Shown here: piece by piece, positions 2,659 to 58,889 of the stretch
Numbering within the stretch: the first letter of the stretch is position 1
How the letters are laid out: every line of letters starts with the position of its first letter
From: an uncultured delta proteobacterium
GTDB lineage: Bacteria; Desulfobacterota; Desulfobacteria; Desulfobacterales; Desulfosarcinaceae
Reading direction: 5' to 3'
Assembly (NCBI GenBank): GCA_963697225.1
Contig: CAVONM010000013.1
Location: 42,375-106,374, forward strand
Length of the DNA: 64,000 nt
The notes under the pieces: generated by a model
Databases searched by the model: none
Seen by the model: the letters and a program-made list of their open reading frames with translations, nothing else
What the model was told of the DNA's origin: nothing
Made by a program: the position numbers and the translations under genes

Positions 2659-2769
2659 ACAGCTTCGGGACGTCGCTGGCACTGATTCATGTCGATGTCA
2701 GTCTATGCCACAACCGGACAACCACGCATGGAAGCTATGGGCATCCTAACGGTCATGGCTGTCGGTGCT

Positions 2770-3237
2770 TTACTTTCTGGCTTTGCCGGCAAGGTATTCG
2801 ATGGTGACCCGCACCACAGTCGTTTGGTCCATCAGACGGTCGATATAGGCGTCCCCGGCAGCAATGTGGTCGGGGGCATATTTGGCCACCAGGGCACGCA
2901 GAGCGGTTTTTTTCAACATCTTGTCTTCGATGACGTCGGCATTGCCGGACACCACCACGCTTTCGTAGCGGGTGGAGAATTTTTCGGGCAGCAACTCGGT
3001 CTTGCCCACCACACAAAAGGAGACCCCTTTGTTGGCGGTGATGTTTTCCAGCTTTTGACCTTCGGTGGCACAGTGAAAAAAGATGTTGTCTTCGATCACA
3101 ACATAATTCACAGGTATGCCGTAAGGTCGGTTGCTTTTGTCCGACGTGCTCAAAATGCCGTACTCGCCGCGTTGCAGCAGCGCCTTGGCGGCGGTATCGT
3201 CAAGCCGCCGGTCTTCCCGCCTCAATGGTTTCGTCAT
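2770..3237 (-). CDS. Pyridoxamine 5'-phosphate oxidase-like FMN-binding protein (NimA/general stress protein 26 family)
   Basis: 155 aa. The YGIPVNYVV...FFHCATEGQK...FCVVGKTE pattern is typical of the PNPOx-like split-barrel family. Confidence 0.65.
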   Translation of the reverse strand: MTKPLRREDRRLDDTAAKALLQRGEYGILSTSDKSNRPYGIPVNYVVIEDNIFFHCATEGQKLENITANKGVSFCVVGKTELLPEKFSTRYESVVVSGNADVIEDKMLKKTALRALVAKYAPDHIAAGDAYIDRLMDQTTVVRVTIEYLAGKARK

Positions 3238-3438
3238 GGGGGTATCCCTTTCCCAGGGGTTGTGCCGATGCGCCTGTCATCGGGTTGGTTTCGCCTTATT
3301 GTCCGGATACCTTTTTTTTGTGTGGATTGCAAATCAAAGCGGCCAATTAACCGAATGAGTATGTGGAGGTGGGCAGTATTGCGGCCCCTTTCGATTCTGT
3401 GCATGCCGAGGCGCTTCCTTCAATCGCTGCCAAACTCG

Positions 3439-4248
3439 TCACCCCTCCAACTCGACCGTCTCCACCAGCACTCGTGCCGTACCCTGCTTGTAAAAGCCCA
3501 GCCGCTTGGCGGCCCCCGCGCTCAGATCGATCATCCGTCCTTCGATAAAGGGCCCGCGGTCGTTCACCCGAACGACGATGCTGCGCCGGTTGGACAGGTT
3601 GGTCACCCGTACGAAGATGGGCAGGGGCAGGTGTTTGTGGGCGGCGCTCAGCCCATCGGGGCTGAAGGCCTCGCCGTTGGCCGTCATGTGGCCGCCCCGC
3701 TGCCGGTAGGTTTCATCACCGTACCAGGAGGCGATGCCTTTTTCACGATAGGTCGTGGCCTGTGCCATTGTCATGGGTACATAGCGCTTGCCCCGGACCG
3801 TGTAGGGTGAATCCTTGACGCGGCCCTGGGCAATGGCCTCCTTGGGGGACAGTCCGTCGATGGTGTCGATGTCGTCATGGGTCAACGGCCAGGAGAGCGG
3901 CGCCGTAATCACGTCGAAGGTGAATCCGCCGACGGTGTAGACGGTGCTGCCGGCAAACTTGGTCACCTTGTAGGCCATGACCACGGTTCCCTTGGTCAGC
4001 CGGTAGGTGGTTCGTATCACACCGCAGGCGGAAAGGATCAGGCATGTCGCAGCCAGCAGGGCGATATAATAGCGCACTGGCCGATTGCTTTTCCGATTAC
4101 CAGGCTGTTGAAAAACTATTTCGTTTGGCCAACCATCGTTAAAATTTGGCTCAAAATACTCATTTATCACACATAAACTCCGCTTTTTCGCCGAATTTTG
4201 CCTTGTCTTGCCCGCGCTCATGACGTTTTTCAACACCCTGTTATGCAT
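3439..4248 (-). CDS. rlpA: Septal ring lytic transglycosylase RlpA-family lipoprotein (DPBB domain). The true start is probably the internal GTG at 4077.
   Basis: ASWYGDE...GGHMTANGEAF...AAHKHLPLPIFVRVTNLSNRRSIVVRVNDRGPF is the RlpA double-psi beta-barrel. A lipobox signal MRYYIALLAATCLILSAC follows the GTG at 4077. Confidence 0.8.
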   Translation of the reverse strand: MHNRVLKNVMSAGKTRQNSAKKRSLCVINEYFEPNFNDGWPNEIVFQQPGNRKSNRPVRYYIALLAATCLILSACGVIRTTYRLTKGTVVMAYKVTKFAGSTVYTVGGFTFDVITAPLSWPLTHDDIDTIDGLSPKEAIAQGRVKDSPYTVRGKRYVPMTMAQATTYREKGIASWYGDETYRQRGGHMTANGEAFSPDGLSAAHKHLPLPIFVRVTNLSNRRSIVVRVNDRGPFIEGRMIDLSAGAAKRLGFYKQGTARVLVETVELEG

Positions 4249-8159: not shown

Positions 8160-11100
8160 TCAGCTTTCAGTTTGCTTGGCTATCGGCGGAAACGTCGTGG
8201 CCCGGGCGAAGGCCATGGCGAAATCAGGTTCGGAGGCCAGTTCCAGATAGCGGATGCGGCGGCTCAGGGCGCGGGCTTCCGATCTCAATTTTTTATCCAA
8301 GAGGGCCATTACGATCCCCACGCCTGCCAGATTTTCTCTGGGGATAACTTCTCCTTCGGCAACGACCGGCGGAAGCATGCCGATGGCCAGGGCGTTTTTC
8401 CAGTTGAAGCGGGCCCCGAAGGCACCGGTGAGGATGGTTCGGTCGATTTTTTCGATGCCTGCCTTGCGCATGAGAAATTCGATGCCCGTGATAAGCGCCC
8501 CCTTGGCCAGTTGAATCTGGCGGACGTCTTTCAAGGTGACTGCAATATCGCTGCCGGTGGTGGTTTGATCGCTGCTTGCGATGGTGTAGTGGCGTCCGAT
8601 GCCCGCTTGGTCGGAAACCACCCCGTCGATGGTCTCATCCAGCCGGCCGTTGGGCAGGATGGCCCCGATGTGGCGCAGGGCGGCGATGGCGTCTATGATG
8701 CCTGAGCCGCAAATGCCCATGGGCCTGTTTTGTCCGTCATTTCCCAGTACTTCGTAGTCAATGCGGCGGCTGCCTTTATCCGGCCATGCACGATGGATGG
8801 CGCCGGAGACCGCACGCATGCCGCAGGAGATCTGGGCCCCTTCCAGTGCCGGACCGGTGGCGCAGCTGGTGACCCACAATCCTTCCCGGTTGCCCAGCAC
8901 CACCTCGCCGTTGGTGCCGATATCCACAATGAGGGTGATCTCGTCGCGTTCGTGGGGTCGGTCGGCCAGAATGGCGGCCATGGTGTCTCCACCCACAAAA
9001 CCCGACACGACCGGCATGAAAAATACCGAAACGGCCGGATCGGTGACCAGCCCCAGATCTCCGGCGCTGAATGGCGGCGGGTTCAGTGTCAGGGGCAGAT
9101 AGGGGAAAACCCCCAGCCCATAGGGATGAAGCCCGGCAAAAACCTGCTGCATGGTGGTGTTGCCGCAGATGCCCACCTCATCGATGTCGCCGACTGTGGC
9201 GCCAACCTGTTCCAGGCAGCGGGTCATGAGAAAATTGATCGCTTCGGTGGCCAGATGTTGGAGTTGATCCAGGTGCGCATCCTTTTCGTTGATTCGGCTG
9301 ATGCGGCTGATCACGTCCTCGCCGAAGCGCCGTTGGGGATTGACACAGGCATCGGCGGCCAGCAGTGCGCCGGTCTCCAGATTGCACAGATAGCCTGCCA
9401 CCGACGTGGTGCCCAGGTCAACGGCGAACCCGAGGCCGGGGGTTTGCCTGCCTGCCAAAATACGGTGTAGGCCGGTCTCTTCGTGCACCACCAGGGTGAA
9501 GGCTTTCAGGCTGTCGCGATATTTGGCCAGCTGCCGCAAGGATGCAATATCGGCAGCCGAGGCGGCCGGTTCGCCGACCTGCGCAGCCAGCCAGTCCAGC
9601 AGGCTTTCCGGGACGTGGTCTGTTTTCAGGCCCGGCGAGCGGTCTTCAACGGCCAGGCGCCGGGTCATGGCATCCACTGGATAGCTGCCAGCGATGCCGG
9701 TTTTGCCTCTTGCTTCGGAATTTCCAGCCAAGGTGTCGGGGATGGTGACCGTTCCTTTGCCGATGGCCCGGGCCTGGCAGGCCAGCCGGGATCCATCGGC
9801 CATTTGATCAGGTGTGAGCACATCCAGTTCCGCCTGGGTGGCTGAAGAGAAATTCGCCTTGGGATGGACGATAACGCGGCACTTGCCGCAGACCCCCATG
9901 CCGCCGCAGTCGGCACGGATGTCGATGCTATGCGCGGCACCCAGTTCCTGGAGGGTTTGCTCTTCCTCTATGGCTACCTTGAGACCGGCCGGTTCGAAGG
10001 TGACCTGGCGGATGTGGCTGAAATTTACGGTGCCAGCGGTGCTCATATCCGACCGATGTTTCTTTTCCCGGCTGCCGTCTGCCTCGACGGTGGTGTCTGC
10101 CCCCCCGGTGAGCAAAAAACTATCGCTGCCATAGGTTTTCACCCGATCCGCTGCCGTAAACCAGCCGCTGCTGCGTACCTGCAGTTCCCGGGAAAGAAAG
10201 GCTGATCGTACATCTAACCGACCACCGGCCACACGCCACTGGATGCAGCGGTAAGGCGTGAAGCCCGCTTCGCTTTTCGATCGGCTGCGGGTGGCGATAC
10301 CGCCGGTTTCGGTGGACCCGTAGACCTCCACCAGATCCACGCCCGTTGCCTTGGAAAATGCCGCGCCGTCGGCTTCGGCCAGTGGGCCGGCCGAGGAAAA
10401 AGCCAGCCGCAGGGCGCCTTTTCCCGGCGGGTTTTCTCTGAGCGCCTGGTAGTGGACCGGCACGCCCACGAAAATGGTGGGTGACGTGTCGGTCATTTGA
10501 CGTTTGATCGCTTCGGGAAAGGAGGGGGTCTGTGCCACCACCCGGGCAGATGCCACCAGGGGTACCAGCAGGGAATAGAGCAGCCCGTAAATCTGCAGGG
10601 CCGGCACGCTGGCCAGAATGCGGTCGCCGCTGCTGATCTCGTAACACTTTATCAGATAGTCCACTTCGCCCAGCAGATTGCGCGGCGTCTTGGACCACAG
10701 GCGCGGGGCGCCGGTGGATCCGCCGGTGAGTAGAACCACCCAGGGCCGGTCAGCATTGGGCGCTTCGTCAGGCGCCAGGGCCTCCGCTTCGTCGTCCAGT
10801 TGCTGGGGTTCGATGACCGTAATCGTTGTCGGCAAGGGTGCTGGGGGACGTGTGATGATTCGGGTGAAGCCGGTCCGGCGATGAAGTTCGGAAACTGTGT
10901 TTGCTGAGAAGTCATCAGGAATCAGCAAGCTCGGACCGTCGACGAGTGTCGCCAGTATGGCCGCGGCCAATACCGAGCGATCATCCGTACCCATGCATAC
11001 CGGGGCCTTGTCTTCGCCGTCGCTGGTCAGCACCGCCCGAATCCGTCTGGCCATCCGGTAGATCCCATCGTAATTGATGCCGGGCATGGTAAATGCCTGA

Positions 11101-11177
11101 CCGGGTCGTTCCGGTCCCGACAATAGCCGTTGCATTCGCATCACCACCGGATCGGTCTTTTTCTTTGCCTCGGTCAT
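8160..11177 (-). CDS. Fusion protein: N-terminal adenylate-forming (AMP-binding) domain + plant-type [2Fe-2S] ferredoxin domain + C-terminal ASKHA ATPase of the RACo/DUF4445 type
   Basis: AMP-binding motifs LLTGGSTGAPRLWSKT and VYGSTETGG are present. The ferredoxin Cys motif is CGGMGVCGKCRV...LACQA. The ASKHA phosphate loops are FAVDLGTTSVAGYL...NPQRRFGEDVISRI and IVDIGTNGEVVLG. Confidence 0.8.
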   Translation of the reverse strand: MTEAKKKTDPVVMRMQRLLSGPERPGQAFTMPGINYDGIYRMARRIRAVLTSDGEDKAPVCMGTDDRSVLAAAILATLVDGPSLLIPDDFSANTVSELHRRTGFTRIITRPPAPLPTTITVIEPQQLDDEAEALAPDEAPNADRPWVVLLTGGSTGAPRLWSKTPRNLLGEVDYLIKCYEISSGDRILASVPALQIYGLLYSLLVPLVASARVVAQTPSFPEAIKRQMTDTSPTIFVGVPVHYQALRENPPGKGALRLAFSSAGPLAEADGAAFSKATGVDLVEVYGSTETGGIATRSRSKSEAGFTPYRCIQWRVAGGRLDVRSAFLSRELQVRSSGWFTAADRVKTYGSDSFLLTGGADTTVEADGSREKKHRSDMSTAGTVNFSHIRQVTFEPAGLKVAIEEEQTLQELGAAHSIDIRADCGGMGVCGKCRVIVHPKANFSSATQAELDVLTPDQMADGSRLACQARAIGKGTVTIPDTLAGNSEARGKTGIAGSYPVDAMTRRLAVEDRSPGLKTDHVPESLLDWLAAQVGEPAASAADIASLRQLAKYRDSLKAFTLVVHEETGLHRILAGRQTPGLGFAVDLGTTSVAGYLCNLETGALLAADACVNPQRRFGEDVISRISRINEKDAHLDQLQHLATEAINFLMTRCLEQVGATVGDIDEVGICGNTTMQQVFAGLHPYGLGVFPYLPLTLNPPPFSAGDLGLVTDPAVSVFFMPVVSGFVGGDTMAAILADRPHERDEITLIVDIGTNGEVVLGNREGLWVTSCATGPALEGAQISCGMRAVSGAIHRAWPDKGSRRIDYEVLGNDGQNRPMGICGSGIIDAIAALRHIGAILPNGRLDETIDGVVSDQAGIGRHYTIASSDQTTTGSDIAVTLKDVRQIQLAKGALITGIEFLMRKAGIEKIDRTILTGAFGARFNWKNALAIGMLPPVVAEGEVIPRENLAGVGIVMALLDKKLRSEARALSRRIRYLELASEPDFAMAFARATTFPPIAKQTES

Positions 11178-12455: not shown

Positions 12456-15400
12456 TTACCTGGGCCTGGCCACGTGCCAAATCATATCCGTCCGGTTTCC
12501 GGAGGTCAGGCAGGTGAGTATTTCGAATCCGCATTTGTCGAGGGTGGTGCGGATTGCCGTTTGGCTGCGGCAGCAAGCCTGACGTCCGCCTATTCTGAGC
12601 GCCAAATGCACTAGCTGCCGGCGCCAGTGGGGTCTGTTCGACCGGGGCAGCAGCGATCGCATGATCAGACGACCACCGGGAAGCAGGCGCTCATGGATGC
12701 GTTCCAGGGTTTTTTCCAACTCCCAGTCCTGCAGGAAGTGACCTACGTCGATCATGGTCGCCAGATTCAGCAGCACATCCATTGCCGGCAAATCGGGTGC
12801 GGATCCCCTGACGATGCGCCCCTGTTCGCCCAACACCAGGGCAGCCACCCGCACCCGCTCGGGCTGCGGATCGATGCCGTGGATGGTGGCGTGGGGATAA
12901 TGCTCGGCCAGCCAGCAGGCCGACACGCCGTACCCGCAGCCCACATCCAGGATGTTGGCCAGGTCGGTTTTTTTCGGCACCAGTGCCGCCAGCTCACTCA
13001 AGAGCGGGTCCACCCGTTGCGAGTAGTGGGCAAACAGGCGCGGGCAGGGCGCCATGTTGCGGTAGCGCCAGGCGACGCCTTCGGCGGCTGGGGGTGGATT
13101 TTCGAACCGTCGTTTCAACAAAGGGGGCAGGATCAGCAGCGTGCCGACAAGGCAATAGCCGATGCCGAAAAAGGAGATCTGTCCGGCGCTTTTCAACAGA
13201 TCATGATCGGCGCCCCAGATTGCGGCAGCACCCACCAGGGTGCAACCGGCGGCCATGACCAGTGCCGTTCGAACCACCGAGAAACAGGGATTGTCGAACC
13301 GCTGGTAGCGCTGGTATCCCCGGACCATGAGCAGGGGACTGCATACGCCCACGCCCAGTATGATTACCGACAGCAGCATCAGTGCGGTGAGGTTTAGTGG
13401 GTGGCCCAACATGCCCATGGTGCCCAACGTACAAATATAGGCGAAGGCCGGGGGCAGCAGGGCAATGAGCAGCAGGCCCATATCGGCCATATAGAAGGCC
13501 AGCAGAAAGGTCAGGACTGCCCCGATGAGCAGCAGCATCGCGATAAGTCCATCGTACAGCCGTTTTTCCATGCGTTGGGAGAGGTGTGCCGGATCGAATA
13601 TAGCCGATATGTCGGATATCCGGTCGTAAAATCGCTGGTTGTCAAAGTGCACACGGGGGGTGATGCGGGTTACCTGGCGCCATTGACCGTCGTTTCCGTC
13701 CCTATGGATACCCAGCAGCGTCTGTACGCTCGGCGGGATGGTGGTCGGGTGGGGGGATGCGGCGGTGATCATGGTCAAAAACGGGTCAAATACACCCTCG
13801 GCAAACCCCTGGGCCGCGCCTTCCCGATTCACCGCCGCGCTGACCATGCGGACGCGTTCCGCGGTCCAGAATTGGTTCCAGGCGTCGAAATTGTCTGCGC
13901 TGCGGCTGCGTCCGGGCCAAAACAGGGATGGTGTCAATGCCTTTTCGATGCTGCCGGCGTGGGTTTCGGTTTCGAGTCGCTCCAGCAACCGGTCGTTTTT
14001 GGCCTGAAGGGCGGCCAGGTCGTTTGCCTCGGTCACCAGATAGACGCTGGAAAAAATGTCACCCCACACACGGGTGATCAATTCCTCCGCCGCACGCGTT
14101 TCCCGGCTGACGCCGCTCATGGCTTTCGGGTCCGTGGCAATGTGGGGCCGGATGAAAAGGGACAGCCCCACCGCAGTCAACAGGGCCAACGCCAGTCCCG
14201 GCCAGCCGGCTGAAAAGAGACGGCCCAGCAGCCGTGGAAAACGGCGTTCGGCAGGCACCGCACGGTGCTGGTCGTCCGTCAGGATCCGGGGGAAGACGGT
14301 GTGGACGAACAGGCAGGAAAAGCCGATCCCCATTGCAGTAACCCACCCTATTTGTTCGAAAACGGCAACGCCGCGGGCGGCCATGGCGCCGAAGACACCG
14401 ATGGTGGTGAGCACGGCCGGCAGCCCGATGGCCCGGATTTCACGGGAGGCCTGCCTTGTCCGTTTTTTACCGCCATTGTCGACAAAGAGCATGTAGGCGA
14501 TGCCGTGGTGTATGGTGATCGAAACCATTACACTCCCGAAGCCCAGTACCATGATGGAAATGCTGTCGTGACTCAATGAAAAGACGAAAACGGCCATGAC
14601 TGTCCCGACCAGTGCCGGCAACAGGGCCAACAGTCCCGCCAGAGGATTGGAAAAGGCGGCCAGCAGCAGTACACCGATGCCCACCGCGGTCCACCGGATG
14701 GCCCGATGCACGTCCCGTTTAACGATGGTTTCGTTGTCCAGGGTGGAACGAAAGGTTCCTGCGGTGGTCAGGGTGATCCCACTGCCGATATTTTGTTTCA
14801 GGCCCTCATCCAGTTCGTGGAAGAATCCTGTCAGGGCGCGCGCCACGGTCGTGTCCGTGCCGTGACCGATCGGGGTGGCCAGGATCAGCAGGTGGCGGTG
14901 GTCGGCGGAGAGAAAACGGCCGCGGTGAATGGTCGTCCCGGGTGTTGGATTCATGGCGGCCAGTCGGGAGAGGATGCTCTGGCGCAGACCCAGCGGGTCG
15001 GTGGCCAATGCCGATGCTGGACTGATGCCGGCCATCCGGTTGTGGTCAGCCCCGCTCCTGGTCAGGGCTTGATGAATTGCCTCGTCGGTCAACAACGGGG
15101 CGACCTGCTGCGCCAACTCCCCCGCGGTAAACAATACAGGCAGATGATGGCAGACCAGATCCGCCAGATCGACAAGTCCCTGCTGCATAGACGGATGTTG
15201 CCTCTGCGCGAACAGGTCGCTTTGCTTCATCCGGTTTTCGACCATTTCTGCGGCGGCGACCAGTCGTGACATATCCCCCTTGATGGATTCGATGTCGATG
15301 GCGATTTGATTGGTTTTTATGATGCCCAGTCCGTCGGCAATCTCAGGGTTGTCCGTGAACAGCGGGCCTGGCATGTCATTATCGATGGTGATGCGGTTGA

Positions 15401-15479
15401 ATGCGACCAGGAAAAGGGTCGCACCGATGAGGGTGACCGCTGCCAGCGCAAACATGTTGATGGACGAATTCAGTCGCAT
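12456..15479 (-). CDS. MMPL/RND-like 'predicted exporter' (COG4258-type, two 6-TM bundles) fused to a C-terminal class I SAM-dependent methyltransferase domain
   Basis: About 800 aa of membrane protein with two transmembrane clusters separated by periplasmic-like domains. The C-terminal ILDVGCGYGVSACWLAEHYPHATIHGIDPQPERV...LPGGRLIM is SAM-MTase motif I plus post-I. Confidence 0.75.
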   Translation of the reverse strand: MRLNSSINMFALAAVTLIGATLFLVAFNRITIDNDMPGPLFTDNPEIADGLGIIKTNQIAIDIESIKGDMSRLVAAAEMVENRMKQSDLFAQRQHPSMQQGLVDLADLVCHHLPVLFTAGELAQQVAPLLTDEAIHQALTRSGADHNRMAGISPASALATDPLGLRQSILSRLAAMNPTPGTTIHRGRFLSADHRHLLILATPIGHGTDTTVARALTGFFHELDEGLKQNIGSGITLTTAGTFRSTLDNETIVKRDVHRAIRWTAVGIGVLLLAAFSNPLAGLLALLPALVGTVMAVFVFSLSHDSISIMVLGFGSVMVSITIHHGIAYMLFVDNGGKKRTRQASREIRAIGLPAVLTTIGVFGAMAARGVAVFEQIGWVTAMGIGFSCLFVHTVFPRILTDDQHRAVPAERRFPRLLGRLFSAGWPGLALALLTAVGLSLFIRPHIATDPKAMSGVSRETRAAEELITRVWGDIFSSVYLVTEANDLAALQAKNDRLLERLETETHAGSIEKALTPSLFWPGRSRSADNFDAWNQFWTAERVRMVSAAVNREGAAQGFAEGVFDPFLTMITAASPHPTTIPPSVQTLLGIHRDGNDGQWRQVTRITPRVHFDNQRFYDRISDISAIFDPAHLSQRMEKRLYDGLIAMLLLIGAVLTFLLAFYMADMGLLLIALLPPAFAYICTLGTMGMLGHPLNLTALMLLSVIILGVGVCSPLLMVRGYQRYQRFDNPCFSVVRTALVMAAGCTLVGAAAIWGADHDLLKSAGQISFFGIGYCLVGTLLILPPLLKRRFENPPPAAEGVAWRYRNMAPCPRLFAHYSQRVDPLLSELAALVPKKTDLANILDVGCGYGVSACWLAEHYPHATIHGIDPQPERVRVAALVLGEQGRIVRGSAPDLPAMDVLLNLATMIDVGHFLQDWELEKTLERIHERLLPGGRLIMRSLLPRSNRPHWRRQLVHLALRIGGRQACCRSQTAIRTTLDKCGFEILTCLTSGNRTDMIWHVARPR

Positions 15480-15632
15480 GCGGATCGCCTTTTGGGCAAG
15501 AAACGGGTTCCAGGAAACAGCCGGTTGATGTGTAGCGTCAGTTCCATCGGGTCATTGTTGACGATCACCGGCAGCTGCGGTACCCGGATGCATGATTCCG
15601 GAGAATGATCCGGCTCCATGGCTTGGTGCCGG

Positions 15633-16226
15633 TTATTTCTGAACGCCCCATCGTTCGCGGATGTTGCGATGGTGGCAGGCCACGATGAACAAGGCGGTCA
15701 CCACGGCGCCGACGCCGGCCCGCCAATCGGTTCCCATAGCGATCGTCGTTCCGGCGGCCAGCGTAACCACCATGGCAAAAGATGACAGAAACGGCGTTCG
15801 CCAGACCAGGTGTGCCGCCCCCCAAGCCAGGGTGCCGACACCGGCCCACATCGGTGCGATCACCAGGGTGAAACCCAGGTAGTTGGCCACCCCCTTGCCT
15901 CCCTTGAGGCCGTGAAAGCAGGGAAAGCGATTACCCAGGATCAGCCCGAGGCCCGCCCATGGCACCTGCCAGAAGGGCAACAGTGATCGGGCCACCAGGG
16001 CCACAGCGACCGCCCGACCCACGTCCAGCAGCAGGACTGCCAAGGCCCAGCCGATGCCTGCCTGCCGAAAGACATTAGTGGCACCGGGGTTGCCGCTGCC
16101 GTGACGACGCGGGTCACCGCGACCGGTGAATCGAAATGCCAGGATGGAAAAATTTACCGATCCGGCCAAATAGGCAGCGGCAATCATGAAGATGAATGTC
16201 GGCAGATGTGTGGCGGGCATGATCAT
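15633..16226 (-). CDS. plsY: Glycerol-3-phosphate acyltransferase PlsY (acyl-phosphate dependent)
   Basis: SGNPGATN signature, FPCFHGLKGGKGVA, 197-aa polytopic protein. Confidence 0.85.
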   Translation of the reverse strand: MIMPATHLPTFIFMIAAAYLAGSVNFSILAFRFTGRGDPRRHGSGNPGATNVFRQAGIGWALAVLLLDVGRAVAVALVARSLLPFWQVPWAGLGLILGNRFPCFHGLKGGKGVANYLGFTLVIAPMWAGVGTLAWGAAHLVWRTPFLSSFAMVVTLAAGTTIAMGTDWRAGVGAVVTALFIVACHHRNIRERWGVQK

Positions 16227-20154: not shown

Positions 20155-21090
20155 CTACTCAAGTCGAGAGACCAGCTCTGCAGCCGTTGAACAGTTCTCA
20201 CCGCCGGCCGCTTCGATACTCCGTCGATAATTATGGCTGGCTCGTCCGCCGACCACCAGCGGGAATCCATTATTCAGCAAGTCAGACAGGCGGGTGAGTT
20301 CGTCTTGCATGAAGGCATCATCGACGCGACAGGTGATGCTCAGGGCAATCATTTCCGCGCCAGGGATAGAACAGGCAGCGGCGATCTCTTCAGCCGGCAG
20401 ATTAAAACCTAAAAAGACCGGTTCCCAACCGTGATCCTGTGCAGTAACGGCTACGGCCAGAGCGCCCAGGTAACAGCACTGGCCGGCCGGTGCGGCGATC
20501 AGCAAGCATGGCTTTTCAGCGGCATCGCCGGTGGGATGACTCAGCAAGCCAATGAGTTGCGCATGAATGACGACCGAGGCCATCTGTCCATGAACAATCC
20601 GCAATGATCCATCAGACCACCTGCGGCCAACCTGCTCCATGAGCGGACAGAATATCGTGTCAATCAAGGCTTGACGGCTGAAGGCCGCGGCTGCCTGCCG
20701 CAGTATGCCCTGCAGCGCCTTGCCGTCAAGCATGGCAACGGCTTCTAAACTATGGCTGACTATCTCAGTTGGGGCGATGCCGGCGGGCATTTTTGAATCG
20801 TCGTGAGTTGGCTCGTTGGGCTGGATGGCGGGTGGTGTGGTGGGTTCCGCCAGCTCGACCAATTGGGCCCGATCGAGACCGGCAATGTGCGATATGCTGT
20901 GGCCATTCTGGATCACCCGTCTGAGCAGGACGAGGCGGTCGATGTCCGACTGGCTGAACAATCGGCGGCCATTGGCCAACCGCTGCGGCGCAACCGCATG
21001 GTATCGGCGTTCCCATGCCCGGATCACATGGGTGGAAAGACCGGTGTGTAAACTGACAAAGCCAATCGGAAAGGCAACCGGACCGGGCAT
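20155..21090 (-). CDS. MerR-family regulator with a C-terminal cobalamin (B12)-binding domain (CarH/LitR-like)
   Basis: N-terminal MerR HTH (FPIGFVSLHTGLSTHVIRAWERRY). C-terminal B12-binding Rossmann-like domain (LLIAAPAGQCCYLGALAVAVTAQDHGWEPVFLG...). Confidence 0.7.
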   Translation of the reverse strand: MPGPVAFPIGFVSLHTGLSTHVIRAWERRYHAVAPQRLANGRRLFSQSDIDRLVLLRRVIQNGHSISHIAGLDRAQLVELAEPTTPPAIQPNEPTHDDSKMPAGIAPTEIVSHSLEAVAMLDGKALQGILRQAAAAFSRQALIDTIFCPLMEQVGRRWSDGSLRIVHGQMASVVIHAQLIGLLSHPTGDAAEKPCLLIAAPAGQCCYLGALAVAVTAQDHGWEPVFLGFNLPAEEIAAACSIPGAEMIALSITCRVDDAFMQDELTRLSDLLNNGFPLVVGGRASHNYRRSIEAAGGENCSTAAELVSRLE

Positions 21091-21529
21091 CGTATCTACT
21101 CCATTCGAGAAAAATGTGGCCTCGCGCAAACGATCCCATGAATGCTTAGCGCCCCGCCTGTCGTCGATGACCCATCATGCATAGCAAAACACACTTTTCA
21201 TTGTTGACAATTTGCCCGCTACCCCACCAAAAGCAGCAGGGGTAGTTTCTGTAGTGGCGGCTTTTCCGAGTTCATCGACGCTGGCGGGCCCGATTTTATT
21301 CGTCGACAAGTTTGGAAATGGCCAGCGCGCAGGCATTCACGGCTTCATCAGGTCCATCCAAGTTGATGATATGATTTTCAAGATCAAAATCTACAATCGT
21401 GCAGCCATGGTTTTCAACCGTCATCTTGATTACATTCAAAAATGTTGCTTCATCCATAAGAGTCATCCTTCCCATCCGTCATCCTGCGACAAAAAGGATT
21501 GCCGGTGACAGATTTACGTCAATGTTGGG

Positions 21530-21742: not shown

Positions 21743-22206
21743 ATAACCTCCTTGCCTGTTCGGGTTAAATGTGACGCGCATCCTCGGTGCCGAAACAGTT
21801 GCAGATGGCACTATGATTTATGCCATGCCCATCATGGCACTCCAATAAAATAGGGCAGCGGGCGCGTGTGTCAATGTTTTGTCTAGTTAGAGGACTCAGT
21901 TTGTTGGGTAGTCGCCCATTGATCGACGCGGGCATCTCGTTTCCACCGAAGACTAACGGCAGCCGATTCTTCTTGTGCATCAGGCGCGACTCTCCGAACC
22001 ATTCAGAGTGGCATGCGGATTACCCGGCTTCCGATCAGAAAGGGCTCAATGCTCATGCGGCGAAACCAACCAAATGGTGAAGGCGTCTCGATTTTTCAGG
22101 CCGACAAAAAAACGAATTGCCAATGTCAAAATTGTGTTTAATATCTGTCTAACAAAACTTATTAATTTTGCTTATTCACCTTAACGATAAAATAATTGTG
22201 AAGATA

Positions 22207-23547
22207 ATGAACGTTCTTCGAAAACGAGCTAGTGTCAAGAAACTTCGCATCGGGCTAACGGATAAGGACCTCGAACGCCTATTTGAGATTCACGCCACAG
22301 ATTCGGCTGCAGTGCTGGCCAGGCGGACAGGGTTGCCCTATTTGATGATCTACAACATCGTTCATAGGCGGGTGATGTCGGTGAGCCATCGGCACTACAT
22401 GACGCTATACGGCCGACCTGCGCCCCAGCAGGTGACGTTGAAGGTGGATGGTGAGCTATTCAGGGCAATGGCTGAATTGTGGCTGTTTCTCAACCAGGGG
22501 CTCACTCGGGCAGACCTTTACCGTGAGCTGTTTGGACTGGAATCTCATCAAAAAACCGATCACCGGATTTTCAATGGAAAGATCCATGCCGTCGATGCCA
22601 GACTTGAGCACATCATGAGACAGAAATTTTCAAATGCGGGTGTCGACACGCAACTGTTGAATCAATGGCTGGAAGAATTCGATTCGATGCCGCACAGCGA
22701 TTGGGTTCCGTACTCCCGCATACGGCCGGCACTGGTGTATCTGTGGGAAAAATTGGGCGTTCACCCGACATCGGTGTTGAATCAGTCCGTCGTCAGATAC
22801 GAAACCGGAATCCTCAAGCGCGTTTCCCGGAGCACCGCTGATCGAATCGAGGCGTTAAAAAACAAAACGGAAAGGGAACTCCGGGAAGATCGAAAACAGG
22901 ATACGGAGAAGATCAAGGAATCTGTTGTCGGTGGAAAACGCGGGTACACGCTTTATTCCGACATCAGGGACGAACTGTTTTTTTTATGCAGAACCACACG
23001 AAGAGGTGCCAAATACTATTTGGGACGAAGCCCTTGGACCTATGAAAAAGGGAGGGCCAAACGAATTGCCAATTGGAGAGCCATCAAGATTTTGCAGGAC
23101 TGCGATCGGTTCATCCGGCAGTCACCCGCCATACCCCTGGCCAATCTGCCACAATCGCGACAATGGGCGCAGGTCCACCGACTGATCGATGTCCTGGTGG
23201 CCCGAACCGCCCAGCTGCTCTCCGACAAGGATGGCATCGCTTTCGAAAAGCGCATCCTGCGACCGTCTCACACGCGGGTTGAATACAACAACCCGTATCA
23301 TGGCTTTACACCCTTCGACATGGCCTCGCGTGTGTTGGGGATGAAACCCAGGGCCTTCGACCTGATGGTGGCGAGAAATTGTGAAATTTTCAGGACCGTG
23401 GGTAAATTCGCCCAGCGCTGGTACCTTCCCGACCTGTATCTGCGGGAGCTGTCCAGGAAGAAAGATTTTGAATTGATCTCGGCCAAATATGAATTGATGG
23501 CCAAAGACGATCGCCGCCCGCGGCCAATCGATGCCTGCATGAACTAG
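22207..23547 (+). CDS. Hypothetical protein (446 aa), no recognisable domain. Preceded by a 400-bp AT-rich segment.
   Basis: Long uninterrupted ORF with lower GC than the surrounding sequence. A promoter-like AT-rich region lies upstream. Confidence 0.5.
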   Translation: MNVLRKRASVKKLRIGLTDKDLERLFEIHATDSAAVLARRTGLPYLMIYNIVHRRVMSVSHRHYMTLYGRPAPQQVTLKVDGELFRAMAELWLFLNQGLTRADLYRELFGLESHQKTDHRIFNGKIHAVDARLEHIMRQKFSNAGVDTQLLNQWLEEFDSMPHSDWVPYSRIRPALVYLWEKLGVHPTSVLNQSVVRYETGILKRVSRSTADRIEALKNKTERELREDRKQDTEKIKESVVGGKRGYTLYSDIRDELFFLCRTTRRGAKYYLGRSPWTYEKGRAKRIANWRAIKILQDCDRFIRQSPAIPLANLPQSRQWAQVHRLIDVLVARTAQLLSDKDGIAFEKRILRPSHTRVEYNNPYHGFTPFDMASRVLGMKPRAFDLMVARNCEIFRTVGKFAQRWYLPDLYLRELSRKKDFELISAKYELMAKDDRRPRPIDACMN

Positions 23548-25791: not shown

Positions 25792-26505
25792 ATGAACGCG
25801 CCGCCGGCAGCAATAGTAACACCTGATGCAGGGCCCCTGTCTATCCATGCCCACCGCCTGACCCGCATATACACGGTCGGTTCGGTGCAGGTGACCGGTA
25901 TCGACAGGATCGATCTTTCCGTTGTCCGGGGCCAGTTGGTGGTGCTCAAGGGCGACAGCGGTTCGGGGAAAAGCACGCTGCTATCGTTGTTGGCCGGGTT
26001 GGACCGGCTCTCCACCGGGGAGCTGGTCGTGGCCGGCCACGACCTGAATCACTGCAGGGAAGCCGAACTGACCGACTTTCGACGCAATACCGTCGGTATG
26101 ATCTTTCAGGCTTTCAATCTGCTGCCGACGTTGACCGTGCTGGAAAACGTCTGCCTGCCTGCACTCCTGGCCGGCCGCGCCTTCCGTGCAGTTCGATCCA
26201 GGGCAGAGGAACTGCTCGACTGGCTCGGCCTGGGCGACCGCCTCAACCACCAGCCGCGTCAGCTCTCCGGCGGAGAAATGCAGCGCAGCGCCATCGCCCG
26301 GGCGCTGATCAATGATCCGGCCATCGTTCTGGCCGACGAGCCCACGGGGAACCTGGACTCACGCAATGCCCGCAAGGTCATGGCCCTGCTGGCCGATCTG
26401 AACCGCCGGTTCGACCGGACCGTCGTGATTGCCACCCACAGCGACCTGGCTGACGAATACGCCACCATGGTGCTCAGGCTGCGAGACGGCCGCGTGGCCC
26501 CATGA
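25792..26505 (+). CDS. ABC transporter ATP-binding protein (LolD/MacB/AttE-like)
   Basis: Walker A GDSGSGKSTLL, signature LSGGEMQR, Walker B IVLADEPTGNLD. GAGGAG RBS before the ATG at 25792. Confidence 0.85.
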   Translation: MNAPPAAIVTPDAGPLSIHAHRLTRIYTVGSVQVTGIDRIDLSVVRGQLVVLKGDSGSGKSTLLSLLAGLDRLSTGELVVAGHDLNHCREAELTDFRRNTVGMIFQAFNLLPTLTVLENVCLPALLAGRAFRAVRSRAEELLDWLGLGDRLNHQPRQLSGGEMQRSAIARALINDPAIVLADEPTGNLDSRNARKVMALLADLNRRFDRTVVIATHSDLADEYATMVLRLRDGRVAP

Positions 26506-35552: not shown

Positions 35553-37394
35553 TCAATCGAACATGAAGGCCACAGAGGCGGCCCCCAATCCGGCACTGGC
35601 GCCGATGACTGGTGAGATGTTGACCTCGGCCACCGGGGTTTTGGCGGCGAGCGTTGTCATTTGCCGCGCATACCAATCGGCCGCCGACCGGTTGTTGGCA
35701 TGCAAAACAATATAGTTCCAGATGGTTCGGTCCCGACTGGTGAGGTTGATGTGCGCCATGACCTTTTTCATATTGGCCTTCTGGCTGAAGGCCTTGCCAA
35801 ACACCATCGAATTCCCGTCCGTATCCATCGACACAATCGGATTGAGGTTGAGAAGTTTGGCCAGCAGGCCTTTCAACGGAGAGACGCGCCCCCCCCTGAC
35901 CATGTATTTTAGCGTTTTTACACTTACCAGGATGCGCGTATCGTCAATCCATCGAGCGGTCTGGTCAATAATCTCGTCATGGGCGACCCCCTTTTCAATT
36001 GCCTGGGCGATGCGCAACACAATCAACCCCAACCCACCCGAGATGTTTTTCGAATCAATGACGCTGATGGGTTTCCCGCAAGCACGGCTGATTGTTTCCG
36101 CGGCTTTGCAACTGCTGAAATAGGTCCCGCTGAACTTGGCGGTCAGATGGACCGCGATAACCGCATCGTAATGCGCTGCCAGACGGGCATACAGATTTTT
36201 GAAAGCAATTTCGTTCACCTGGGCGGTTTTGGGGTAGTCGTCTCTATTATCGATGCGCCGGTAGAACTGTTCGGGGTGCATGGTAATCTTATCCAGATAG
36301 TGATTGTTACCGAAGTAGATGTTTATGGGCAGCATATGGATCTGATAGTCGTCGATCAAGGCCGGTGAGAGGTCGCACGCCGAATCGGTGACCAGGGCAA
36401 TCTTCCATTTTCGCTCATAGATGACCTGGCTCTGCCTGAGCATATCGTCGGCTTTTTGAAAGGTCAGGGTCCCATGATGCTGAAGCGTTTCAAACAGTCG
36501 GCCCGGGTGGCTGGTGTGGACATGCAGACGGCTGGCCTTAGCTGCACCGGCAACCACGACGGAATCGCCATGTTCAGAAAGGATCTCGGACAGCCGGTTG
36601 TGATCCAGGGACACATTGCGGATTATTGCCTCCGTACAATAGCGATAAACCACTTCCTTGGGAACATCGCTTTCTACCGGCATTTGATCGCTAGTGTCCT
36701 CCCGCACGCGGTCGTCGGTGGTCAACTTGACGAGATGGCGGATGCTATTTTTACGGATACATTCAATAATGCCGTCAATAAAATAGACGAAGGCCTTGGC
36801 GCCGGCATCGACCACATCAGCCTTGGCCAGGACGTCCAGCTGCAGTTTGGTCTCGGCCAACGCCTTTTCGAGGATTGCTTTCGAGTCGACAAACAATTGG
36901 CCAAAATCGTCGATTCGGTGCTGCTTAGCGTCGATGAAATCGGCCCAGGCGCTGACGATGGTCAAGAGGGTGCCTTCCACCGGGTCCGCCACTGCCTGGT
37001 AGATGTATCGCACCGCATTTTTTACGCTTGCAGTAAACGGCTCAATCGAAACACTGGCCAGGTCGTCGGTTTCACTGCTCACACCGAAGAGGAACTGGGC
37101 GAAGATGATGCCTGAATTACCGCGTGCGTTCATCAGGGCCGTCTCGGCAATCCGATCAAGCATTTGTTTGTATGGCCGCTCCGGCCTAACCGAATCGACG
37201 ACCGCACCTAAGGTAAATGCCATGTTGGCTCCGGTGTCGCCGTCTTTGACGGGAAAGACGTTGATCCGGTTCAGCCGCTCCTGGTTGGCAACGACCTTCC
37301 GGGTGCCGGCCAGGAACATGTAATACAACCATCGACCATCAATTTCTCTCATAGGGCGGGTTACTTTACTACCATCAGGTTGATTGAACCCCAA
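35553..37394 (-). CDS. DAK2-domain / DegV-domain fusion protein (YloV-like)
   Basis: N-terminal DAK2 (KDGDTGANM). C-terminal DegV fatty-acid-binding domain (IALVTDSACDL...). Confidence 0.8.
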   Translation of the reverse strand: MGFNQPDGSKVTRPMREIDGRWLYYMFLAGTRKVVANQERLNRINVFPVKDGDTGANMAFTLGAVVDSVRPERPYKQMLDRIAETALMNARGNSGIIFAQFLFGVSSETDDLASVSIEPFTASVKNAVRYIYQAVADPVEGTLLTIVSAWADFIDAKQHRIDDFGQLFVDSKAILEKALAETKLQLDVLAKADVVDAGAKAFVYFIDGIIECIRKNSIRHLVKLTTDDRVREDTSDQMPVESDVPKEVVYRYCTEAIIRNVSLDHNRLSEILSEHGDSVVVAGAAKASRLHVHTSHPGRLFETLQHHGTLTFQKADDMLRQSQVIYERKWKIALVTDSACDLSPALIDDYQIHMLPINIYFGNNHYLDKITMHPEQFYRRIDNRDDYPKTAQVNEIAFKNLYARLAAHYDAVIAVHLTAKFSGTYFSSCKAAETISRACGKPISVIDSKNISGGLGLIVLRIAQAIEKGVAHDEIIDQTARWIDDTRILVSVKTLKYMVRGGRVSPLKGLLAKLLNLNPIVSMDTDGNSMVFGKAFSQKANMKKVMAHINLTSRDRTIWNYIVLHANNRSAADWYARQMTTLAAKTPVAEVNISPVIGASAGLGAASVAFMFD

Positions 37395-52965: not shown

Positions 52966-53015
52966 TCGATGCAATGCCTGACAGCGGCCATCCATTCACT
53001 GAGGAATCGATAACC

Positions 53016-57963: not shown

Positions 57964-58069
57964 ATGCCCGGTCATTCAGCCGATGCATTGCGTCTCACAT
58001 TGATCGGTAACACACCCATCACGTTTCATCCGCCATCGTCCAACCCGGGCGGATGATGAAAGGATAACC

Positions 58070-58804: not shown

Positions 58805-58889
58805 CCCTTTCTGGTGATTCCCATTCATACGGTCGGCATCCGCGGCTGCGGCTGCCTCTCCATTAAAACCTAAAAAAGGTGATAAACGC

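What the first reader, a model, noticed from the sequence alone, without database searches (positions are those of the whole stretch)
12456..16226. MMPL-like COG4258 exporter fused to a SAM methyltransferase, co-oriented with plsY
The 1007-aa protein has two 6-TM bundles separated by periplasmic domains. I recall COG4258 'predicted exporter' proteins from aryl-polyene and other specialised lipid clusters. It carries a complete class-I SAM methyltransferase at its C-terminus.

Physical fusion of a lipid exporter to a methyltransferase implies methylation is coupled to export. The substrate could be a lipid head group or a carboxylate. The gene immediately follows plsY (acyl-phosphate:G3P acyltransferase). 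A FabH-like/PLP-enzyme operon and the adenylation fusion are within 10 kb. Together this suggests a locus for an unusual membrane lipid.
Basis: partly seen in the sequence, partly recalled or inferred. Interest (0 to 1): 0.65.

Follow-up and report, generated by a model that had tools for sequence, protein, structure and literature searches.

The report
Lipid exporter fused to methyltransferase, orphaned copy
The gene really encodes an aryl-polyene-type lipid exporter fused to a methyltransferase, a widespread but unstudied design in sulfate-reducing bacteria, but this genome's copy has lost its partner lipid-synthesis genes and its proton-driving residues and survives only under weakened selection.

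Summary
ORF 12456..15479(-) encodes 1007 aa: a 12-TM RND exporter with two periplasmic domains, plus a cytoplasmic C-terminal class-I SAM methyltransferase (MTase). It lies 153 bp downstream of a co-oriented plsY.

The fusion is not an artefact. More than 180 distinct full-length homologues (36-84% identity) exist, mostly in Desulfobacterota. The exporter is ApeM-like (COG4258; hhalign 98.8%, E 5e-17).

In most genomes the gene sits in a conserved cluster: B12-radical SAM, dehydratase, ACP, two radical SAM genes, two KAS genes, thioesterase, DH-PPTase, (plsY), GT25, fusion, polysaccharide deacetylase, AMP-ligase. Several of these are homologous to E. coli Ape proteins. Other lineages fuse a PlsC-type acyltransferase or a GT2 to the same exporter-MTase. 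This supports a shared pathway in which a lipid is acylated, methylated and exported.

The window belongs to a derived Desulfosarcina-type sub-clade. All six examined members keep only plsY and the fusion. Both mid-membrane Asp residues are replaced (D324H, D713C). 33 of 173 family-invariant positions have changed. dN/dS is 0.37-0.56, against 0.20-0.22 in full-cluster relatives.

The copy is retained but probably no longer works as the original proton-driven exporter. The methyl acceptor is unknown.

The parts
12456..15479 (-). Whole ORF, 1007 aa: ApeM-like RND exporter fused to a class-I SAM methyltransferase (stop codon at 12456-12458)
   Evidence: More than 180 distinct full-length homologues.
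13095..15479 (-). Exporter module, residues 1-795. TM1 is at 9-29 and periplasmic domain 1 at 30-241. TM2-6 span 242-394. TM7 is at 425-440 and periplasmic domain 2 at 441-629. TM8-12 span 630-792.
   Evidence: AF2 model and hydropathy with the positive-inside rule. Foldseek: HpnN E 2e-20, MmpL3/4/5 about 1e-14. hhalign to E. coli ApeM: 98.8%, E 5e-17 over 563 columns. HMM scores: 85 bits for ApeM against about 40 for HpnN.
14508..14510 (-). Codon for His324, at the mid-TM4 position. It is Asp in 171 of 184 family members and aligns with the Asp of ApeM's 'ADY'.
   Evidence: The role of the TM4/TM10 Asp-Tyr dyads in the RND proton relay is taken from PMC7458404.
13338..13343 (-). Codons for Cys713-Ser714, at the mid-TM10 position. 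It is Asp-Tyr in most family members ('GMG[IV]DY'); ApeM has Asn-Tyr here.
   Evidence: The same motif aligns with the D344-containing TM4 motif of HpnN through internal symmetry.
12459..13094 (-). Cytoplasmic linker, helical lid and class-I SAM methyltransferase domain, residues 796-1007
12927..12950 (-). SAM-binding motif I, LDVGCGYG (residues 844-851). The acidic residue ending strand beta-2 is D870, in 'GIDPQ'.
   Evidence: Read directly from the sequence. D845, G847, G849 and G851 are invariant in alignment A1, and the motif is kept in 78 of the 80 sequences aligned.
15480..15632 (-). 153-bp spacer between plsY and the fusion gene. In most full-cluster relatives a GT25 gene of about 244 aa sits here.
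   Evidence: No terminator-like or promoter-like site in the spacer.
15633..16226 (-). PlsY-family acyl-phosphate:glycerol-3-phosphate acyltransferase, 197 aa
   Evidence: PF02660, 124.8 bits. TIGR00023 scores 102 bits, below its cutoff of 137. A co-oriented plsY lies upstream of the fusion in 17 of 80 loci and downstream in 2 more by tblastn; de novo clustering counts 20 of 80 loci. Its three family motifs (GSGNPGATN, GGKGVA, HHRNI) can be read in the sequence.
8160..11177 (-). AMP-binding + 2Fe-2S + RACo fusion. Its N-terminal domain is the counterpart of the cluster's ApeH-like AMP-ligase, and is a probable remnant of or accessory to the original cluster.
   Evidence: Pfam. About 41% identity to the stand-alone AMP-ligase of distant full clusters. 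28% identity and E 2e-10 to E. coli ApeH. Retained in all six stripped-clade loci.

Best explanation
The gene belongs to a large, uncharacterised family found mainly in Desulfobacterota. In this family an ApeM-type (COG4258, RND superfamily) lipid exporter carries a class-I SAM methyltransferase on its cytoplasmic C-terminus.

Native role (inferred). In its usual setting the gene lies in an aryl-polyene-like type-II FAS/PKS lipid cluster with added radical-SAM enzymes. Dedicated KAS, ACP, dehydratase and radical-SAM enzymes build a special acyl chain. An acyltransferase (PlsY here; a fused PlsC-type domain in other lineages), a glycosyltransferase and a deacetylase attach the chain to a glycerol or sugar anchor at the inner leaflet. 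The fused methyltransferase methylates the lipid or its head group on the cytoplasmic face. The RND module then extracts the lipid from the inner membrane, powered by the proton gradient through mid-membrane Asp residues in TM4 and TM10.

This window (shown). The gene is from a derived Desulfosarcina-type sub-clade. The biosynthetic genes, GT25 and the deacetylase are gone. Only plsY, the fusion and an AMP-ligase/RACo gene remain. Both Asp residues are replaced, and about a fifth of the family-invariant residues have changed across all domains. Selection is roughly two-fold weaker but still purifying.

This window (inferred). The copy is no longer the proton-driven exporter of the original product. 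It persists in a reduced or altered role, most likely as a membrane-embedded, SAM-binding lipid-handling partner of PlsY.
For: Fusion real and conserved.

Topology and cytoplasmic MTase.

RND lipid-exporter fold.

ApeM homology over both halves.

Conserved partner cluster and its Pfam content.

Homology of cluster parts to E. coli Ape proteins: KAS to ApeR/ApeO, thioesterase to ApeK, dehydratase to ApeI, ACP to ApeE, AMP-ligase to ApeH.

Rosetta-stone fusions: exporter + PF01553 acyltransferase + MTase, and GT2 + exporter + MTase.

APE precedent for acyltransferase + glycosyltransferase + MTase + RND exporter acting on one glycerolipid: PMC8253772 and bioRxiv 10.1101/2020.12.19.423268.

Window-specific state:
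- No cluster genes anywhere in the 64 kb.
- The same stripped synteny in 6 of 6 clade members examined.
- Asp kept at both positions in 165 of 184 family members but lost in the window's clade, which is monophyletic with branches about 50% longer.
- The window keeps 140 of 173 conserved columns, against 171-173 in full-cluster controls.
- dN/dS is 0.37-0.56 (upper confidence bound 0.70 or less), against 0.20-0.22.
- The fusion diverges 2.1-3.7 times faster than the flanking EamA gene, against 0.96-1.55 times in full-cluster lineages.
- SAM motif I is retained.
Against: No member of the family has been studied experimentally, and the product of the partner cluster is unknown.

A genuine unfused exporter exists in the same type of cluster (P0137), so methylation is not obligatory for export.

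E. coli ApeM itself has Asn at the TM10 position and HpnN has Ala, so loss of the TM10 Asp alone would not prove inactivity. The argument rests mainly on the TM4 Asp and on the overall relaxation.

Only 64 kb of this genome is visible, so the biosynthetic cluster could lie elsewhere.

Whether this plsY is a dedicated paralogue or the only housekeeping copy was not resolved.

The residue equivalence comes from sequence and profile alignment, not from superposed coordinates.
Confidence: 0.6

Rival explanations
1. The protein is a fully active exporter in which methylation is coupled to export. It works with plsY, the FabH-like/PLP operon and the adenylation fusion as a local locus for an unusual membrane lipid.
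For: plsY and the fusion are adjacent and co-oriented, with no terminator-like site between them. The order plsY, fusion, EamA, AMP/Fer2/RACo, FMN reductase, Cys/Met-PLP enzyme, FabH-like is conserved across the stripped clade down to 63% identity. A fatty-acid-kinase-like fusion that could supply acyl-phosphate lies 20 kb away. The ORF is under purifying selection.
Against: The FabH-like and PLP genes are not neighbours of the fusion outside this lineage. Only 3-4 of 80 loci have a tblastn hit to either gene, and the FabH hits outside L001 are weak. The genes that are conserved with the family are all missing from the window. Both mid-membrane Asp residues and 33 of 173 invariant positions are lost. 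dN/dS is about twice that of full-cluster orthologues.
Confidence: 0.12
2. The gene is a functionless relic on its way to becoming a pseudogene. plsY is kept only because it is essential.
For: Conserved residues are lost evenly across the TM, periplasmic and MTase regions. The fusion is the fastest-evolving gene in the neighbourhood. All partner genes have been lost.
Against: dN/dS is 0.37-0.56 in all 15 pairwise comparisons, with upper bootstrap bounds of 0.70 or less, so selection is clearly still purifying. The ORF of about 1000 aa is uninterrupted in at least 15 clade members that have diverged to about 58% identity. SAM motif I and 24 of 29 invariant MTase positions are kept.
Confidence: 0.15
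3. The cluster was relocated rather than lost. The biosynthetic genes lie elsewhere in the genome, and the protein still exports their methylated product using a different coupling mechanism.
For: Only 64 kb of the genome, and about 20 kb of each relative, can be seen. Related lipid RND proteins tolerate a non-acidic residue at the TM10 position: ApeM has Asn and HpnN has Ala. The AMP-ligase/RACo gene of the original cluster is retained next door.
Against: The TM4 Asp, which is conserved in ApeM, in HpnN (D344) and in 171 of 184 family members, is also lost. Constraint is relaxed across the whole protein. GT25 and the deacetylase, which flank the gene tightly in 55 and 59 of 80 loci, are gone too.
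Confidence: 0.1

Closest known systems
ApeM, the RND exporter of aryl-polyene lipid clusters (APPE family, COG4258 'predicted exporter'), for example E. coli CFT073 WP_000185758.1
   Same: It is homologous over both TM bundles and both periplasmic domains: hhalign 98.8%, E 5e-17, 563 columns, 85 HMM bits. Its native context is a type-II PKS/FAS-like lipid cluster whose KAS, ACP, dehydratase, thioesterase and AMP-ligase are homologous to ApeR/O, ApeE, ApeI, ApeK and ApeH. The cluster also encodes an acyltransferase, a glycosyltransferase and a methyltransferase.
   Different: ApeM is 772 aa with no fused enzyme. Here a class-I MTase, unrelated to ApeB beyond the common fold (8.7 bits), is fused at the C-terminus. 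The partner cluster adds three radical-SAM genes, uses PlsY and GT25 in place of ApeD and ApeJ, and has no detected homologue of ApeC (chain-length factor), ApeG, ApeL, ApeN or ApeQ (ketoreductase). The window copy has no cluster at all and has His where ApeM has its TM4 Asp.
HpnN (hopanoid exporter, HAE-3) and the mycobacterial MmpL3/4/5 lipid exporters
   Same: These are the best structural matches: HpnN E 2e-20, MmpL about 1e-14. They share the 12-TM RND fold and transport lipids. MmpL proteins are also known to bind biosynthetic partners such as AcpM on the cytoplasmic face, as the titles of several PDB hits show.
   Different: Sequence similarity is weak: about 40 bits to HpnN, in the second half only. 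The protein scores far below the NCBIfam cutoffs for HpnN, HAE3 and MMPL: 45 bits against 752, 352 and 875. None of these proteins carries a fused methyltransferase.
Radical-SAM/FASII 'ladderane-candidate' clusters of anammox bacteria and the syntenic Desulfotalea psychrophila cluster (Rattray et al. 2009, PMC2649909)
   Same: As described in the paper, these clusters hold divergent FabF paralogues, ACP, radical-SAM enzymes (one B12-type), a polysaccharide-deacetylase-like protein, a glycosyltransferase, a 'phenylacetyl-CoA ligase', an unusual SAM methyltransferase and 'a new membrane protein'. This closely resembles the partner cluster found here, including in Desulfobulbales relatives of Desulfotalea (L055).
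   Different: Homology was not tested here; my one attempt stayed within close Desulfobulbales orthologues. No chain named for the anammox methyltransferase AmxMT1 is among the 49 PDB sequence hits to this protein. The window itself contains none of these cluster genes.

Membership tests
RND superfamily transporter | 12 TM helices arranged 1+5 / 1+5, with large extracytoplasmic domains between TM1-2 and TM7-8, and internal two-fold sequence symmetry | tested here: met
   AF2 model and hydropathy. Foldseek hits to HpnN, MmpL, NPC1 and Patched. The TM10 motif aligns to the TM4 motif of HpnN.
RND superfamily transporter | Mid-membrane acidic residue or residues in TM4 (and often TM10) that form the proton relay | tested here: not met
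   The family consensus has Asp in TM4 (171 of 184) and Asp or Glu in TM10. The window has His324 and Cys713. The TM4 Asp aligns with the 'ADY' of ApeM. The role of these residues is taken from PMC7458404.
ApeM / APPE family (COG4258 'predicted exporter') | Sequence homology to ApeM across the whole exporter | tested here: met
   hhalign 98.8%, E 5e-17, 563 columns. HMM 85.3 bits. JGI names homologues 'predicted exporter'.
ApeM / APPE family (COG4258 'predicted exporter') | Encoded in an aryl-polyene-type cluster (KS/CLF, ACPs, dehydratases, ketoreductase, thioesterase, acyltransferase, glycosyltransferase, LolA/LolB-like proteins) | tested here: not met
   The window has none of these genes. 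Family-wide the feature is partly met: the KAS, ACP, dehydratase, thioesterase and AMP-ligase are homologous to Ape proteins, but no homologue of ApeC, ApeG, ApeL, ApeN or ApeQ was detected.
MMPL family (Pfam PF03176) | Score above the Pfam gathering threshold | tested here: met
   28.1 bits against a cutoff of 20.5, covering residues 185-410 only.
HpnN / HAE-3 (TIGR03480, TIGR00921) | Score above the NCBIfam curated cutoff | tested here: not met
   45.3 bits against 751.85, and 45.8 bits against 351.9.
Class-I SAM-dependent methyltransferase | Rossmann-type alpha/beta fold, glycine-rich motif I, and an acidic residue at the end of strand beta-2 | tested here: met
ApeB (aryl-polyene head-group methyltransferase) | Specific sequence similarity beyond the shared fold | tested here: not met
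   8.7 HMM bits. hhalign 83%, 15% identity.
DVU_1556 family methyltransferase (NF045667) | Score above the NCBIfam cutoff | tested here: not met
   33.8 bits against a cutoff of 155.
PlsY (acyl-phosphate:G3P acyltransferase), for the upstream gene | Family HMM match and the three conserved motifs | tested here: inconclusive
   PF02660 scores 124.8 bits, well above its cutoff. The equivalog model TIGR00023 scores 102.1 bits, below its cutoff of 137.2. The motifs are visible in the sequence. Whether this is a paralogue or the housekeeping copy was not resolved.
Anammox/Desulfotalea radical-SAM FASII ('ladderane-candidate') cluster | Orthology of the partner-cluster genes to the Kuste3335-3352 and DP185x genes | not tested
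   There is only a resemblance in gene content, taken from PMC2649909. The homology search did not reach those taxa.

The most novel reading that the evidence does not exclude
The exporter-MTase family, and its versions with a fused acyltransferase or glycosyltransferase, would be a membrane-embedded machine in which synthesis is coupled to export. The last tailoring steps of a specialised envelope lipid, made by a radical-SAM-containing cluster, would take place on the exporter itself. In the window's sub-clade the RND scaffold would have been converted into a proton-independent lipid-presenting platform for its own methyltransferase, working with PlsY on ordinary membrane lipids. That would be an RND protein turned from transporter into enzyme scaffold.
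Probability: 0.15. Interest if true: 0.7.

Novelty: new variant of a known kind. Interest (0 to 1): 0.42.

Why it matters
RND lipid exporters with a tailoring enzyme fused to them appear not to have been described. No paper in the searched library mentions such a fusion, and databases label these proteins only generically.

The family is large: more than 180 distinct full-length sequences and 322 matching genome stretches. Its sister architectures include exporter + acyltransferase + methyltransferase. Together they give Rosetta-stone evidence that acylation, glycosylation, methylation and export of a specialised lipid are physically organised at the inner membrane.

The native partner cluster resembles both aryl-polyene clusters and the still unsolved radical-SAM 'ladderane-candidate' clusters. 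It occurs in cultured sulfate reducers such as Desulfosarcina widdelii PP31, which makes the chemistry experimentally reachable.

The window's own copy is mainly useful as a natural experiment. It shows what happens to such an exporter after its biosynthetic partners are deleted: the proton-relay residues are lost and selection weakens, yet the gene is retained for a long time.

Tried and rejected
- Anammox link. I searched with a cluster radical-SAM protein to connect the partner cluster to the anammox and Desulfotalea clusters. All 120 listed hits were Desulfobulbales orthologues of 78% identity or more, so nothing was learned about anammox.
- PlsY paralogy. I searched with PlsY to find genomes with two distinct copies. 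All listed hits were cluster-type orthologues of 64% identity or more, so the question is unresolved.
- Source contig. The 100%-identical database protein P0001 is not in the encoding-contig index, so the source contig could not be extended beyond the window.
- HpnN alignment. The HMMER alignment of the first half to HpnN had a negative score (-6.2) and placed D344 one helical turn away. I discarded it in favour of the ApeM profile alignment.
- AmxMT1. The anammox ACP-binding C-methyltransferase was considered as a relative, but no chain named for it is among the 49 PDB sequence hits.
- DVU_1556 family. Considered and rejected at 33.8 bits against a cutoff of 155.
- RNA elements and signals. 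Rfam found nothing in the window. The promoter/terminator scan was no better than shuffled sequence and showed nothing in the plsY-fusion spacer.
- 'Unfused' entries. Several in the representative search are fragments; P0152's 90% cluster also holds a 1032-aa member. P0137 is genuine.

Full report
**1. The observation**

One search lists a 1007-aa ORF at 12456..15479 on the minus strand. A 197-aa ORF at 15633..16226 lies on the same strand, 153 bp upstream.

Pfam and NCBIfam give the large protein these hits:
- a weak MMPL hit (28.1 bits against a cutoff of 20.5);
- weak HAE-3, HpnN and MMPL hits in both halves;
- clear class-I SAM methyltransferase (MTase) domains at about residues 825-990.

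The small protein is PlsY-family (PF02660, 124.8 bits). It scores below the cutoff of the PlsY equivalog model (102 against 137 bits).

An AlphaFold2 model built on 19 homologues (pLDDT 81.9, pTM 0.72) shows 12 long helices arranged 1+5 / 1+5. It also shows two alpha/beta domains in the large loops and a C-terminal Rossmann domain. Hydropathy and Lys/Arg counts place loops 334-349, 401-424 and 720-738 in the cytoplasm, along with the 'LLKRRF' that follows TM12. The methyltransferase is therefore cytoplasmic.

**2. The fusion is real**

A search of 5.8 billion proteins found 361 relatives. The 120 best-scoring are nearly all full-length proteins of about 1000-1040 aa, at 38-100% identity, that carry the methyltransferase domain. 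JGI names several of them 'predicted exporter/SAM-dependent methyltransferase'.

A scan of one genome per species found 322 matching stretches. All 80 loci kept have the gene as one ORF. They come from Desulfobacterales, Desulfatiglandales, Desulfobulbales, Syntrophobacteraceae and Desulfoarculaceae, and include cultured strains such as Desulfosarcina widdelii PP31 and Desulforhopalus sp.

SAM motif I ('(L/I/V)D(V/I)G(C/S/T)G(Y/F)G') is kept in 78 of the 80 aligned sequences, and the acidic residue ending strand beta-2 in all of them; the window protein has both.

**3. What kind of exporter**

Foldseek against the PDB ranks the hopanoid exporter HpnN first (E 2e-20). The mycobacterial lipid exporters MmpL3/4/5 follow, then NPC1 and Patched.

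I fetched the E. coli CFT073 aryl-polyene cluster and compared it directly. The exporter profile matches ApeM at 98.8% probability, E 5e-17, over 563 columns. On the HMM scale ApeM scores 85 bits, against about 40 for HpnN.

**4. Native genomic context**

I clustered all ORFs in the 80 loci de novo and annotated them with Pfam. This reveals a conserved, co-oriented cluster in this order:
- B12-binding radical SAM
- FabA/ApeI-like dehydratase
- ACP
- two radical SAM genes
- two KAS genes
- 4HBT thioesterase
- PKS-dehydratase + PPTase fusion
- an esterase-like gene in some loci
- PlsY (20 of 80 loci)
- GT25, immediately upstream (55 of 80)
- the fusion
- polysaccharide deacetylase, immediately downstream (59 of 80)
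- often an AMP-ligase

Several parts are homologous to E. coli Ape proteins:

| Cluster protein | Ape homologue | E-value |
|---|---|---|
| KAS | ApeR/ApeO | down to 1e-50 |
| Thioesterase | ApeK | 1e-19 |
| Dehydratase | ApeI | 1e-10 |
| ACP | ApeE | about 1e-7 |
| AMP-ligase | ApeH | 1e-25 |

In the aryl-polyene system, an acyltransferase (ApeD), a glycosyl/acyltransferase (ApeJ), a methyltransferase (ApeB) and the RND exporter ApeM act on one glycerolipid that is destined for the outer membrane (PMC8253772; bioRxiv 10.1101/2020.12.19.423268).

The gene content also resembles the radical-SAM/FASII clusters of anammox bacteria and Desulfotalea psychrophila described by Rattray et al. (PMC2649909). 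Their chemistry was still unresolved in 2026 (PMC13459092). I could not test that homology.

**5. Rosetta-stone architectures**

An exhaustive profile search with the exporter part alone found 1642 representatives at E below 1e-30. Besides the roughly 1000-aa fusion, Pfam shows three other architectures:
- a large class of about 1275-1300 aa: exporter + PF01553 (PlsC-type) acyltransferase + methyltransferase;
- one GT2 + exporter + methyltransferase protein;
- unfused exporters. One of these (P0137) is genuinely unfused and lies in a KAS, thioesterase, PS-DH, exporter, radical-SAM cluster.

These fusions independently tie the exporter to glycerolipid-type acylation, glycosylation and methylation. 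They support a functional link between the window's plsY and the fusion gene. They also show that the methyltransferase is a frequent but dispensable tailoring module.

**6. The window's copy is a derived, orphaned form**

- No cluster genes. tblastn with cluster proteins from the closest full-cluster relatives finds only plsY anywhere in the 64-kb window.
- Shared synteny. The window, its 83%-identical sister L001 and four further relatives (P0006, P0016, P0040, P0026) all show the same stripped order: DtxR, AMP-nucleosidase-like, plsY, fusion, EamA, AMP-binding/Fer2/RACo.
- Asp residues. In 184 distinct full-length members, 165 keep an Asp in mid-TM4 ('TVD[HQ]GIAY') and an Asp or Glu in mid-TM10 ('G[IV]DY'). 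13 have lost both and 6 have lost the TM10 one.
- One clade. An NJ tree puts nearly all degenerate forms in one clade. It is nested among Desulfosarcina-type full-cluster sequences and has root-to-tip distances about 50% longer.
- Which Asp matters. The TM4 Asp aligns with the Asp of ApeM's 'ADY'. The TM10 motif aligns with the D344-containing motif of HpnN through internal symmetry. In MmpL3 the TM4/TM10 Asp-Tyr dyads form the proton relay (PMC7458404). The window has His324 and Cys713-Ser714.
- Invariant positions. Of 173 columns at least 95% conserved in intact members, full-cluster controls keep 171-173. The window keeps 140:

| Region | Conserved columns kept |
|---|---|
| TM | 63/79 |
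| Periplasmic | 45/55 |
| MTase | 24/29 |
| Loops | 8/10 |

- Selection. dN/dS is 0.37-0.56 in all 15 stripped-clade pairs, with upper bootstrap bounds of 0.70 or less. Full-cluster pairs at similar dS give 0.20-0.22.
- Relative rate. Amino-acid divergence relative to the flanking EamA gene is 2.1-3.7 times in stripped pairs, against 0.96-1.55 times in full-cluster pairs.

The gene is therefore neither a pseudogene nor under its original constraint.

**7. Interpretation**

Shown:
- family identity, topology and ApeM homology;
- the conserved partner cluster and the alternative fusions;
- the degenerate, orphaned state of the window's clade.

Inferred:
- In the native system the methyltransferase modifies the lipid or its head group at the inner leaflet, just before proton-driven extraction by the RND module.
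- The window's copy has lost proton coupling and the original substrate, and survives in a reduced or altered role with PlsY.

Caveats:
- No family member has been studied.
- ApeM and HpnN tolerate a non-acidic TM10 residue.
- The rest of the genome is unseen.
- Whether this plsY is a paralogue is unresolved.

The 'adenylation fusion' does carry the cluster's ApeH-like ligase domain.

**8. Verdict**

The family is a new variant of a known kind: an ApeM-type exporter with a fused tailoring enzyme. It is uncharacterised and undescribed in the searched literature.

The window's instance is an orphaned, relaxed copy. Interest is therefore moderate at family level and lower for this particular locus.

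Noticed in passing
window 8160..11177 (-): A 1005-aa fusion of an AMP-binding domain, a 2Fe-2S ferredoxin domain and a RACo-type corrinoid reductive-activase (ASKHA) module. The N-terminal part is about 41% identical to the stand-alone AMP-ligase of distant full clusters and is ApeH-like. A corrinoid activase next to a cluster that normally contains a B12-radical-SAM enzyme is suggestive. The gene is split in two in L087.
   Followed up: partly
window 35553..37394 (-): A 613-aa fusion of FakA-like (Dak2) and DegV domains, that is, a fatty-acid kinase. It would produce acyl-phosphate, the acyl donor used by PlsY. It lies about 20 kb from plsY.
   Followed up: no
window 20155..21129 (-): A regulator with a MerR-type HTH fused to B12-binding domains (CarH-like). 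It is conserved at the same relative position in L081.
   Followed up: no
window about 51700..60254 (+): A run of co-oriented genes: a GFO/IDH/MocA oxidoreductase with a ThuA-like N-terminus, a GNAT/FemAB-like acetyltransferase, a GT4 glycosyltransferase and a myo-inositol-1-phosphate synthase. This may be an inositol-containing glycoconjugate or lipid pathway.
   Followed up: no
window 26502..29105 (+), within the GC-rich stretch 26-30 kb: An 867-aa MacB/FtsX-type permease in a segment whose GC content (0.64-0.65) is clearly above that of its surroundings (0.52-0.59).
   Followed up: no
window 2689..3810 (+) and 22168..23547 (+): Two sizeable ORFs (373 and 459 aa) with no Pfam match at E 0.001 or below.
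   Followed up: no
proteins P0214, P0223, P0252 (about 1205-1290 aa) and P0157 (1316 aa), from the representative search: Other lineages carry triple fusions of exporter + PlsC-type acyltransferase (PF01553) + methyltransferase, and a GT2 + exporter + methyltransferase fusion. P0157 is from a Deltaproteobacteria MAG. A Verrucomicrobiia MAG carries an exporter-MTase fusion (P0246 cluster).
   Followed up: partly
L055 2578..3630 and its homologues (partner-cluster radical SAM): This radical-SAM protein of the partner cluster is very strongly conserved. The 120 best hits are 78-93% identical across Desulfobulbales, and 2065 hits have E 1e-10 or below. Many of them have no precomputed Pfam match at all.
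   Followed up: no
L086 1..3300: Upstream of an intact 1006-aa fusion gene, the DtxR and nucleosidase genes appear only as short fragments (71 and 120 aa). This could be a local assembly problem or real decay.
   Followed up: no
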